This document shows, piece by piece, positions 9,301-12,300 of a DNA stretch of 64,000 nucleotides. The notes below the pieces were generated by a model that had not been told where the DNA came from, did not search any database, and saw only the letters and a list, made by a program, of their open reading frames with translations. The DNA comes from Felis catus (taxonomy: Eukaryota), in NCBI RefSeq assembly GCF_018350175.1, contig NC_058369.1:1426001-1490000 (forward strand). The letters run 5' to 3'. Position numbers and translations under genes: made by a program. Each line of letters begins with the position of its first letter. Within the stretch, counting starts at the first letter, position 1.

Positions 9301-12300
9301 CGCCGAGCTTGGTTCGCGGGCGCCTGTGTCCGGGTGCTCGAGGGAACCACGTGTAGGGCAGGTTCGTGGGTGCTGAGCTCCCTCACCAGCTGCACCCGCG
9401 CGGGTCCCCTTGGCCACTCTGTGCCGGGCTCCCCTGAGAAGCTGTCTTTTCCGGCAGGCTTCTACGCGGGCTCGGTGGCCGTCAGCCCAGCCCCCCTCGC
9501 TTCCGGAGCAGATCCCGGCACCTTTGACGAGGTCCCCAGCGCAGGCGGTCTGTTTGCCAGCGTGGGGTCCTGTGGCTCCACCCCGCAGCACCCGCCCCTG
9601 CTGCCGCAGCCCCGCGGCTCTGGCGCAGCCTCGCCCGCCCACCCGCTCTGCGCCAGCCCCCGCCTGGGCGGCGCCGCCCAGGGTCCGCTCCCTGACGCCA
9701 ACAAAGGGGACCTTCCTCCCGAGGCCGGCTTCTCGGACCCCGAGGGCGAAGCCAAGCGGAGGATCGTCTTCACCGTCTCGGCCGGCGGGGGCAGCACCAA
9801 GCAGTCGCCTCCCAGCAAGCCCAGCCCTCTGCCCACGGGCGGCCGCGGGGACGGCAGCCAGGGCCACGGGCAGGACAGCCGCAAGCGGGGCAGAAGGAAG
9901 CGGGCGGCGGCAGGGACCCCCGGCCTGAGCTCAGGCGTGTCGCCCAAGCGCCGGGCCCTGCCGTCCGTGGCCGGCCTCTTCACGCAGTCTTCAGGGTCCC
10001 CCCTGAACCTCAACTCCATGGTAAGGCTGGGAACGGGCGGGGGTGGGAGGGCGCGTTCTGTGCCCAGCCCGGCCGGGGCGGCAGGGCTCCCGGAGCACAG
10101 CCAGGCCTCGGCCCCCTCGCCCCGGCACTCCCCCCGGAGGGTCCGGTGTGAGATCCGGAGCGGGTCAGGGTGGGAGGGTCCCAAGCACAGCCCTGGGTGT
10201 CGGTGCTCTGGGAGCCTGTTGACGGGGTCGCGCTGTGTGTGTCTGTGCCGGTCCCTCAGGTTAGCAACATTAACCAGCCTTTGGAAATCACGGCCATTTC
10301 GTCCCCTGAGAGCCTGAAGAGCTCCCCTGTCCCCTACCAGGACAGCGACCAGCCACCCGTCCTCAAGAAGGAGAAGCCCCTGAGCCAGACCAACGGGGCC
10401 CACTACTCCCCACTGACCTCGGACGAGGAGCAGGGCTCCGAGGATGAGCCGGGCAGCACCAGGTGAGGGGGGCCAGGCAGGGCAGCTTTCGCGGGAGGGA
10501 GGAGACGCCCTCGTGATCCGGCGGGGCCCCTCCCAGGGCAGGGCCCGGGTGAAGGACAGGCGGCGTCCGGCTGCCATTAGTTGGGGGGCACGGGGGGCAC
10601 GACCCCTCGGCTGCTGTCTGCGGTCCCCCAGAGCGGCCGTCCTCGGGCGGACAGTGTCTCCGGGCTGTTGGCCTCCGCTCAGTGAGTTGCTGTCTGTGAA
10701 GGGCCCGGGCCGCCTTCCCACCCACCTGAGATTCAAGGTCCAGGGCAGGGCCGGCGGCCACCCGGGTTTGGAGGCCCCGGCGTGGGGGCCGCTCTGTTGT
10801 TTCCCGTCTGGGGCGCAGGCGGCCGCGGCAGGAAAGTGCTCGAGGAGGCCGAGCTCTGCGCTGCTGGTGAACGCTTCACCCACGGCGTGATGGGTCACGA
10901 AGGGCTTCTCTTTTGTGCGTGGCGGTCTCACTGGCGCGGATTCCCGCAGCACGTCTCTGGAGCGCGATCTGGGGGTCGGGGGCGTGTTCAGAGTGGTGCA
11001 AACGTCGCTAGTGCCAATTGGAGGAGGTTGTTGTCACCCCGAAAACAAGCCCCCTTATCCGTCACTCCCTGCCCCTGCCCCTGCCCCAGCCCTGGCTCCC
11101 ACCATCCACTCTCTGTCTCTGTGAGCGGGACTCCTCTGGGGACCCCCTGTGAGTGCGGTCACGCGGGACGTGCCCGTCTGTGTCCGGCTCCTGTCACCGC
11201 GCACAGTGGCCTCCGGGTCCGTCCACGTGGTGGCAGGCGGCAGGACGTCCTTCCTCCCTGGGGCTGGGTCACATTCCGGCGTGTGGGTGGACACACCGTG
11301 TTTGTCCTTCATCCACGGAGGGACCCTGGGGTGGGTGTTGCCACTTTTCAGTTAATGAGGACTATGCTGCTGTGAAGTTTCACACACGTGTTTTTGTTTG
11401 AAAATGTTTTCCAAAAAAACTAGTGTTTCCCGTTTACCCAGAAGTAGAATTGCTGGGTCACGCGGTGACTCTGTTTAGCTTTTTGCGGAACCTCCAGACT
11501 CTTCCACAGTGGCTGCCTCGTCTCACGTCCCCCGGCCGCGGGTGAGGGTGCCAGTTTCTCCGCGTCACTTGTTATTTTCTGGTTTTGTCATCTACCTACC
11601 TATTTACGAGTTTTTTAACATTAATTTAGAGAGAGAGAGAGGGAGAGAGAGGGAGAGCACAAGTGGGCGGAGGGGAAGAGAGAGGAAGACACAGAACCTG
11701 AAGCAGCTCCAGGCTTCGAGCTGTCGGCACAGAGCCGGACGCGGGACTCGAACTCACGGACCGTGAGATCATGATTAAGCGGAAGTCGGACGCTTAACCG
11801 GCTGAGCCACCCAGGTGCCCCAACTGTTTTTTTTTTTTTTTTAACGTAGCAGCCATTCTTACGGGCACAGCGTTTCGTAGTTGTGGGTTCCTTCTCTTTC
11901 AGTCACCAGTGACAGTGAGCGTCCTCTTGTGCGCTGCTTGGCCATTTGTGCGTCTTTGGAGAAACGTGCGTCCAGGTGCTCCTTGTGTGTGGCGTCGCTG
12001 GGTGGGTTTTTGTTCGACTGTCAGAGTTCTTTACGTGTTCTAGACGCCATCCTTTATCAGAGATCTGATCCTTGAACGTTTTCTTCCTTTCTCTGGGTTT
12101 TCTTTTCAGTTTCTTGCTGGTGTCCTTCGAAGGGCAGAGTTAGATTTTGGTCCAGCCCCATCCCTCTTTGCCTGCGTTTCTTGCCTGTGCTTTCGGTTTC
12201 TTGTCTAGGGTGATTCATTCTGTTCCTCTTCCGCGTACCTAAGTTATGTTTCTAGGAATTTTGCACTTGAGTGCTTTTGTTTTGTGTTGGGAATGTCCGA

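What the first reader, a model, noticed from the sequence alone, without database searches (positions are those of the whole stretch)
11091..11316. Ancient L1 relic with an ungapped ~87% identical, equally GC-shifted twin 31 kb away
Seen: 11091-11316 aligns without gaps to 42528-42753 (about 29 mismatches in 226 nt by hand count). Known: both resemble L1MB-age 3' UTRs, whose AT-rich consensus (recalled ...ggaatcatacagtatttgtccttttgtgactggcttatttcac...) is replaced in both copies by ggtcacgcgggacgtg(c/t)ccgtctgtgtc(c/t)ggctcctgtcac. Inference: independent copies this old should be far more diverged and gapped and should not share derived bases. This points to non-allelic, GC-biased gene conversion homogenising dead repeats, or to a re-mobilised GC-rich L1-derived family.
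Basis: partly seen in the sequence, partly recalled or inferred. Interest (0 to 1): 0.72.

Follow-up and report, generated by a model that had tools for sequence, protein, structure and literature searches.

The report
Chromosome-end-wide rewriting of fossil repeats
The two look-alike dead jumping-gene fragments are two of at least 40 scattered over the last 5 million bases of one chromosome that share a GC-rich middle whose marker words occur nowhere else in the genome, most likely because DNA recombination has long copied them onto one another, and other fossil repeats there and at a second chromosome end show the same pattern.

Summary
The pair is real: 29 mismatches in 226 ungapped bases. 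It is not a private twin: its identity is median among family pairs. All 40 best genome hits and all 38 exact matches of two marker words lie in C2:0.11-4.55 Mb. Copies are 84-92% alike over a ~240-base core but 43-59% in homologous flanks; 61 of 62 near-fixed changes are A/T to G/C, none the reverse. Parallel GC drift predicts ~61% and gives 60% at other GC-rich ends. A second L1 type, an LTR relic and a DNA-transposon relic are confined to the same region. The end of C21 has its own versions, one with a shared ~30-base deletion; copies cluster by chromosome end. Best reading: GC-biased non-allelic gene conversion acting over multi-megabase chromosome-end domains. No other species could be checked. 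Earlier scan notes describe only pairwise conversions on other DNA; nine paper searches found no such domain.

The parts
11072..11330 (-). Copy A: homogenised GC-rich core (family 1) of an old L1 3' UTR relic
   Evidence: 93% to the family-1 majority over 197 nt
10979..11071 (-). Copy A flank towards the L1 3' end: homologous but not homogenised; scores only, and weakly, on the family-2 flank model (possible chimera)
11331..11600 (-). Copy A flank towards the L1 5' side: old L1 sequence, 64-74% to other copies; interrupted by a SINE at about 11611-11837
42425..42760 (-). Copy B: homogenised core (family 1)
   Evidence: 92% to the family-1 majority over 281 nt
42342..42827 (-). Whole L1 relic B, from the T-run at its 3' end to a young SINE at 42831-43066; short internal deletion after 42760
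41956..42207 (-). Family-2 copy: a second, different L1 3' UTR type with its own homogenised GC-rich core
   Evidence: 84%
7809..7946 (-). Family-2 copy (partial core; relic continues to about 8048)
   Evidence: 92% over 137 nt
27032..27212 (.). LTR relic (MLT1-like by recall), member of a third region-confined family
60720..60898 (.). Second copy of the same LTR-relic family
46582..46727 (.). Third copy of the same LTR-relic family
30047..30112 (.). Fragment of a DNA-transposon relic (MER20-like by recall), fourth region-enriched family
   Evidence: 79% over 67 nt, weak

Best explanation
The pair belongs to a set of separately inserted, ancient L1 tails in the terminal ~5-6 Mb of contig C2 whose middles have likely been overwritten from one another, many times, by GC-biased non-allelic gene conversion. 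Shown: regional confinement, a homogeneous core inside old diverged flanks, one-way A/T-to-G/C fixation, mosaic variants, fading with distance from the chromosome end, the same pattern in three other repeat families and at a second chromosome end with its own versions. Inferred: recombination-initiating breaks are frequent near this end; a broken repeat is sometimes repaired from a non-allelic copy of the same family within a few Mb; mismatches are resolved towards G/C; conversion needs homology on both sides, so the middle shared by all copies stays in the pool while the ends escape. Each family then evolves as one regional gene pool and drifts to a GC-rich regional form.
For: Confinement: 40 of 40 best hits, 14 of 14 and 24 of 24 exact marker matches in 2.43 Gb in C2:0.11-4.55 Mb; the AT-rich motif is genome-wide. 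Profile: pairwise identity among 30 copies 0.84-0.92 in six 40-column bins of the core, 0.43-0.59 in the six bins on the 5' side, 0.63-0.69 at the L1 3' end; flank majority equals that of AT-rich controls; columns outside the search query are also 0.80-0.87. Polarity: 62 near-fixed differences, 61 W>S, 0 S>W, 25 transversions; only 4 of 61 could be retained CpG. Drift null: 0.607 expected from the same substitution spectrum against 0.864 seen; ancestral A/T columns are bimodal, 59 replaced and 75 kept of 162; GC-rich copies of other ends are 0.60 alike, max 0.75, 421 pairs; a 66%-GC copy on C27 finds only 67-77% hits, on 8 contigs. Mosaic: 13 of 21 pairs of mid-frequency transversions show all four combinations; shared minor alleles fall with distance, rho -0.17, p 0.0045. 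Gradient: identity to the family core 0.85-0.95 to 4.55 Mb, 0.83-0.87 at 5.9-6.4 Mb, 0.69-0.73 at 8.2-13 Mb. Other families: second L1 type 40 of 40 and 24 of 24, core 0.84-0.91 against flanks 0.32-0.66; LTR relic 29 of 31; DNA-transposon relic 33 of 37. Second domain C21:111.1-114.9 Mb: LTR relic 38 of 41; same L1 type with its own core, 0.80-0.93 within, 0.61-0.78 to C2, a ~30-base deletion in 12 of 18 loci shown while one copy has the derived upstream part without it. Tree: 38 C2 copies one branch (100/97), 13 C21 copies another (97/80). Toy model: only biased, homology-dependent conversion gave a plateau with W>S-only fixation.
Against: No orthologue or population data, so old insertion at each site and direction of transfer are inferred from flanks only. 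SINEs in the same region are not more alike to each other than to outside SINEs in any of 6 clusters (430 copies). Linkage decay along the core is weak (p 0.026 family 1, 0.097 family 2). The toy model needed several hundred to 1500 attempts per mutation, and overshot GC at the upper setting; human duplicates are reported at about ten times the mutation rate and to escape quickly (bioRxiv 10.1101/135152, abstract and section 7), and Alu conversion is reported within about 10 kb (PMC6598467, PMC8230782). C2 and C21 share the same derived base at 31 of 35 columns changed in both, so part of the 'derived' state may be older, shared between ends, or belong to a source subfamily that the AT controls do not match exactly. 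Most family members were picked as best hits; the unselected 264-kb stretch has only 6 family-1 copies. Base composition is uneven across the tree and its bootstrap had not settled.
Confidence: 0.8

Rival explanations
1. A single ancient burst: one GC-rich donor per family overwrote its regional relatives once (by DNA- or cDNA-templated replacement), and copies have since decayed independently; no lasting exchange.
For: Star-like tree inside the C2 branch; copies are 5.0% (2-11%) from the family majority at non-CpG sites; SINEs show no regional homogenisation.
Against: Mid-frequency transversions in all four combinations and a distance effect; partial states at 5.9-6.4 Mb; copy A and a copy 715 kb away share 93% and extend beyond the plateau; in L023 both copies of the short duplication around an older-type SINE carry the derived bases although the core is less diverged than that SINE cluster, which points to a long process.
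Confidence: 0.09
2. Young GC-rich L1-derived family re-mobilised and inserted preferentially near this chromosome end, or local copy-paste duplication of short cassettes.
For: High identity and few gaps; a recognisable family majority sequence.
Against: The 3'-terminal ~80 bases, which retroposition copies first, are only 0.63-0.69 alike and the 5' flanks follow the AT-rich ancestral majority; four unrelated repeats of three classes share one region; variants are not nested; no shared unique flank.
Confidence: 0.04
3. Independent parallel AT-to-GC drift under strong allelic GC-biased conversion.
For: The window is 65% GC; flanks and copies at other GC-rich ends are GC-shifted too; 31 derived bases are common to C2 and C21.
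Against: Expected 0.61, seen 0.86; bimodal columns; GC-matched copies elsewhere 0.60; a shared 30-base deletion; copies in 48-54% GC surroundings carry the full derived core; simulation without conversion gave no fixed change.
Confidence: 0.02
4. The cores are functional (binding sites or regulatory islands) and selection, acting through conversion, spread and holds the derived forms.
For: Sharp plateau; CpG-rich cores; precedent in Drosophila ISX elements (PMC6598467, part 2 read).
Against: Several unrelated families with unrelated cores, all shifted only towards G/C, and different versions at different chromosome ends; no Rfam match in the cores.
Confidence: 0.05

Closest known systems
Non-allelic gene conversion between transposable-element copies: Alu-Alu, LTR-LTR (review PMC6598467, parts 1-2 of 4 read; PMC8230782, passages; Aleshin and Zhi 2010 seen only as cited there)
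   Same: Dispersed dead copies, mosaic variants, reduced divergence, dependence on distance.
   Different: Reported for young, highly similar elements and mostly within about 10 kb or as single events; here whole families of very old relics of three classes are homogenised over 4-6 Mb, with dozens of region-wide fixed changes.
GC-biased non-allelic conversion in gene duplicates (Harpak et al., bioRxiv 10.1101/135152, abstract and section 7)
   Same: GC bias; mean tract 250 bp, about the width of the plateau here.
   Different: There duplicates soon escape and the average effect is small; here about 100 non-coding copies per family (extrapolated) appear not to have escaped.
Concerted evolution with GC enrichment in multigene families such as histones and Hsp70 (recalled, not read)
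   Same: Many loci as one pool; one-way W>S fixation.
   Different: Those are genes under selection, often clustered; these are non-coding relics between and inside unrelated genes.
Deletion bias of non-allelic conversion (PMC3280953, abstract)
   Same: The C21 family has spread a ~30-base deletion.
   Different: One case; no rate measured here.

Membership tests
Old L1 (L1MB-type, label recalled) 3' UTR relic | Homology to AT-rich genome-wide copies of the same repeat | tested here: met
   flank majority nearly equal to control majority; core 63-79% to it
Old L1 (L1MB-type, label recalled) 3' UTR relic | Subfamily-diagnostic positions against Dfam/Repbase consensus | not testable with these tools
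   no repeat library held
Old L1 (L1MB-type, label recalled) 3' UTR relic | Poly-A-derived tail and target-site duplication | tested here: inconclusive
   T-run at 42342 in copy B and in many loci; duplications not searched systematically
Non-allelic gene conversion among repeats | Separate loci with unrelated unique flanks | tested here: met
Non-allelic gene conversion among repeats | Tract more alike than the flanks of the same elements | tested here: met
Non-allelic gene conversion among repeats | Mosaic, non-nested shared variants | tested here: met
   copy A chimera only suggestive
Non-allelic gene conversion among repeats | Dependence on distance | tested here: met
   weak within 4.6 Mb, strong beyond 6.5 Mb
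Non-allelic gene conversion among repeats | Insertion present at orthologous sites in outgroups while paralogues cluster by species | not testable with these tools
   no relatives held; no run listed
Non-allelic gene conversion among repeats | Polymorphisms shared between paralogues within the species | not testable with these tools
   one genome only
GC-biased conversion | Excess of W>S over S>W fixation | tested here: met
   61 to 0 (C2), 47 to 1 (C21)
GC-biased conversion | Transmission or frequency bias of segregating variants | not testable with these tools
   no population data; minor alleles among copies show no clear frequency skew
Young retrotransposon subfamily | High identity up to the 3' terminus | tested here: not met
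Young retrotransposon subfamily | Genome-wide dispersal | tested here: not met
Segmental duplication | Identity continuing into unique flanks | tested here: not met

The most novel reading that the evidence does not exclude
Probability: 0.6. Interest if true: 0.85.

Novelty: new variant of a known kind. Interest (0 to 1): 0.8.

Why it matters
If true, ectopic recombination among very old, short repeats is far more frequent and longer-ranged at some chromosome ends than current estimates from Alu and gene duplicates allow, and it leaves a readable fossil map of meiotic contact range (about 5-6 Mb here). It gives dozens of neutral replicates for measuring GC bias of non-allelic conversion, explains part of the GC and CpG richness of a gene-dense end, and would mislead repeat dating, de novo subfamily calls and any phylogeny or neutral-rate estimate that uses ancestral repeats from these regions.

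Tried and rejected
Private twin of 31 kb: rejected. Segmental duplication: rejected. Parallel drift: rejected. Search bias towards the window's contig: rejected, since C27 and C21 queries gave other distributions and pattern scans count all matches. Retained ancestral CpG as source of the W>S excess: 4 of 61 only. Structured RNA or coding function: the only Rfam match in the window is the antizyme frameshift element; of 44 frames given out of 107 listed, only two AMH frames hit Pfam, and the frame over copy A hit nothing. Cross-species test: no run was listed for 10500-11600 with a long-read filter; no reads were laid. SINE homogenisation: none seen (the nearest-neighbour count of the youngest cluster is spoiled by ties). 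Other GC-rich ends: 13 dispersed pairs in 1.02 Mb from 10 ends against 75 in 264 kb of C2 (about 11 per 100 kb after scaling by the square of length); only C21 led to a second domain, C27 and C41 starts give weak hints (0.73-0.76). The C2 stretch at 5-7.5 Mb was not sampled without selection; the gradient rests on 8 loci from other searches. Papers: nine searches (listings and abstract starts) showed no description of such domains; PMC7805219 and PMC9659126 (term look-ups) have nothing on it; Aleshin and Zhi 2010 is not held. Repeat-library curator notes and subscription papers could not be searched.

Full report
Observation. The two stretches align without gaps with 29 mismatches in 226 bases; the ungapped match runs 11072-11323 against 42509-42760 at 86.5%, far above any other diagonal (maximum 41%). 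The window is G000:C2:1426001-1490000, near the start of a 169-Mb contig, 65% GC. It holds AMH and the antizyme frameshift element; by recall this is the region that matches human 19p13.3, copy A lies just after a splice donor at about 10463 of a DOT1L-like gene, and the SINEs are of cat-family type. Subfamily names are recalled.

Not a twin but a regional family. A genome search with the 252-base core scored 40 of 140 candidates; all 40 lie in C2:0.11-4.55 Mb at 80-93%. Exhaustive scans with two marker words gave 14 of 14 and 24 of 24 matches in the same interval, controls 0. The A-B pair is ordinary within the family: 0.871, 48th percentile among 35 copies below 4.6 Mb. In an unselected 264-kb stretch around the window, 6 copies belong to this family and 6 to a second one at 0.84 or more, 3 are intermediate (0.72-0.75), and several partial or other-type L1 relics with 38-47% GC are not converted. 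Scaled to 4.6 Mb this is about 100 copies per family (extrapolation).

Anatomy. Projected on a majority of 17 AT-rich controls, 30 copies are 0.84-0.92 alike from -136 to +104 around the motif, 0.63-0.69 at the element's 3' end and 0.43-0.59 on the 5' side, where controls are 0.51-0.66. The flank majority equals the control majority; the core majority does not. So old, separately decayed elements share a rewritten middle. Columns upstream of the query, on which no selection was made, are part of the plateau. Of 62 near-fixed differences 61 are W>S and none S>W; 25 are transversions; 4 could be retained CpG. Copies are 5.0% from the family majority at non-CpG sites; controls are 17.9% from theirs.

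Parallel drift fails. With the same substitution spectrum applied independently, identity would be 0.607, not 0.864; ancestral A/T columns are either replaced or kept in nearly all copies (59 and 75 of 162), unlike 11 GC-rich copies from elsewhere. A 66%-GC copy at C27:0.94 Mb finds only 67-77% hits over 8 contigs. Copies from different GC-rich ends average 0.60, maximum 0.75 (421 pairs; the within-region maxima of 1.0 there are split hits of one copy).

Signs of exchange. Mid-frequency non-CpG variants are common; 48-68% of site pairs show four gametes, linkage is slightly higher within 15 bases (p 0.026; family 2 p 0.097); 13 of 21 pairs of frequent transversions show all four combinations, and shared minor alleles fall with distance (rho -0.17, p 0.0045). 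Identity to the core fades along the arm: 0.85-0.95 to 4.55 Mb (copy A 0.81 because its upstream part is not converted), 0.83-0.87 at 5.9-6.4 Mb, 0.69-0.73 at 8.2-13 Mb. Copy A is the only one of 30 whose upstream flank does not score on the family-1 model; it scores weakly on the family-2 model (14 and 0.2 bits), and its downstream flank is ambiguous: it may be an element of the other type overwritten in the middle, which is suggestive only. In L023 an older-type SINE sits at the core's edge with derived bases on both sides, which suggests that the derived state is older than that insertion.

The whole region does it. A second L1 type (41956-42207, 7809-7946) has 40 of 40 best hits and 24 of 24 marker matches in C2:0.06-4.58 Mb, with a 0.84-0.91 core in 0.32-0.66 flanks; its majority is only 64% like family 1. 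An LTR relic has 29 of 31 hits and a DNA-transposon relic 33 of 37 hits in the same region, at lower identity (71-89%). After masking SINEs and tandem repeats, 264 kb of C2 hold 75 dispersed pairs, 1.02 Mb from 10 other GC-rich ends 13.

A second domain. One of those 13 pairs led to C21:111.1-114.9 Mb, the end of that contig: 38 of 41 hits of an LTR relic, and the 18 best of 50 rows for an L1 of the family-1 type. These have their own core (0.80-0.93 within, 0.61-0.78 to C2; 47 W>S, 1 S>W; 10 copies) and a ~30-base deletion in 12 of 18 loci shown. In a tree of 101 cores, 38 C2 copies (0-6.5 Mb) and 13 of 14 C21 copies form separate branches (composition uneven, bootstrap rough). C2 and C21 share 31 derived bases and have 21 and 23 of their own; an earlier exchange between ends or an imperfect ancestor proxy could explain the shared part; this is open.

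Mechanism. Most likely GC-biased non-allelic gene conversion, with breaks and donor search concentrated near the chromosome end (inferred). A toy model of 100 truncated copies gave no plateau without conversion or with unbiased conversion, and a central plateau with W>S-only fixation with biased, homology-dependent conversion; the data fall between its 400 and 1500 attempts-per-mutation settings, one run each. This shows sufficiency, not proof, and implies a high rate. Against the reading: SINEs show no regional signal, which a far larger copy number and younger age could explain but which was not modelled; and no outgroup or population data could be had.

Comparison. Conversion between transposon copies and its GC bias are known (PMC6598467, parts 1-2; PMC8230782, passages; bioRxiv 10.1101/135152, abstract and section 7; PMC3280953, abstract), but at about 10 kb range or with quick escape. 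Nine searches listed no paper on multi-megabase, multi-family homogenisation of ancient repeats; repeat-library notes and subscription journals were out of reach. Earlier scan notes on this genome describe pairwise conversions of neighbouring L1s and one GC-rewritten L1; look-ups by sequence, place and words found nothing on this family.

Verdict. New variant of a known process; interest 0.8.

Noticed in passing
G000:C21:111.1-114.9 Mb (L244, L245, L278-L302): Second chromosome-end domain with its own homogenised LTR-type and L1 relics; the L1 form carries a shared ~30-base deletion, and L278/L279 have short tandem expansions inside the core.
   Followed up: yes
L158:8602-8790 and L167:2056-2245 (C2:1334602, C2:1418056): Unidentified 190-base GC-rich pair, 89% alike, inverted, 83 kb apart; probably another regional family.
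   Followed up: no
L301 (C47:1.795 Mb): L1 copy near the start of C47 shares part of the derived bases of both the C2 and C21 forms; possible third domain or old exchange between ends.
   Followed up: no
L069, L079 (C27:0.94 and 1.02 Mb); C41:0.88 and 0.96 Mb; L080, L081 (C2:54.8 and 56.1 Mb): Neighbouring copies group together in the tree or are 73-76% alike: weak homogenisation may be widespread.
   Followed up: partly
L110, L118, L126, L127, L131, L133: Family-2 cores end in a CpG-rich unit that has expanded into short tandem copies in several loci.
   Followed up: no
window 33208-33736: Tandem repeat of about 21-base units in a long open frame, by recall the proline-rich tail of SF3A2.
   Followed up: no
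window 35236-37401 and 51094-51152: AMH coding frames (Pfam) and the antizyme frameshift element (Rfam), which place the region.
   Followed up: yes
window 61371-61786: Two SINEs head to tail, 88% alike.
   Followed up: no
C41:874507/909467, C41:948767/952353, C46:82348010/82355793, C11:204342346/204346338, C37:60922137/60961761: Near-identical (95-98.5%) pairs of 300-550 bases in control regions, probably young LTR pairs or local duplications.
   Followed up: no
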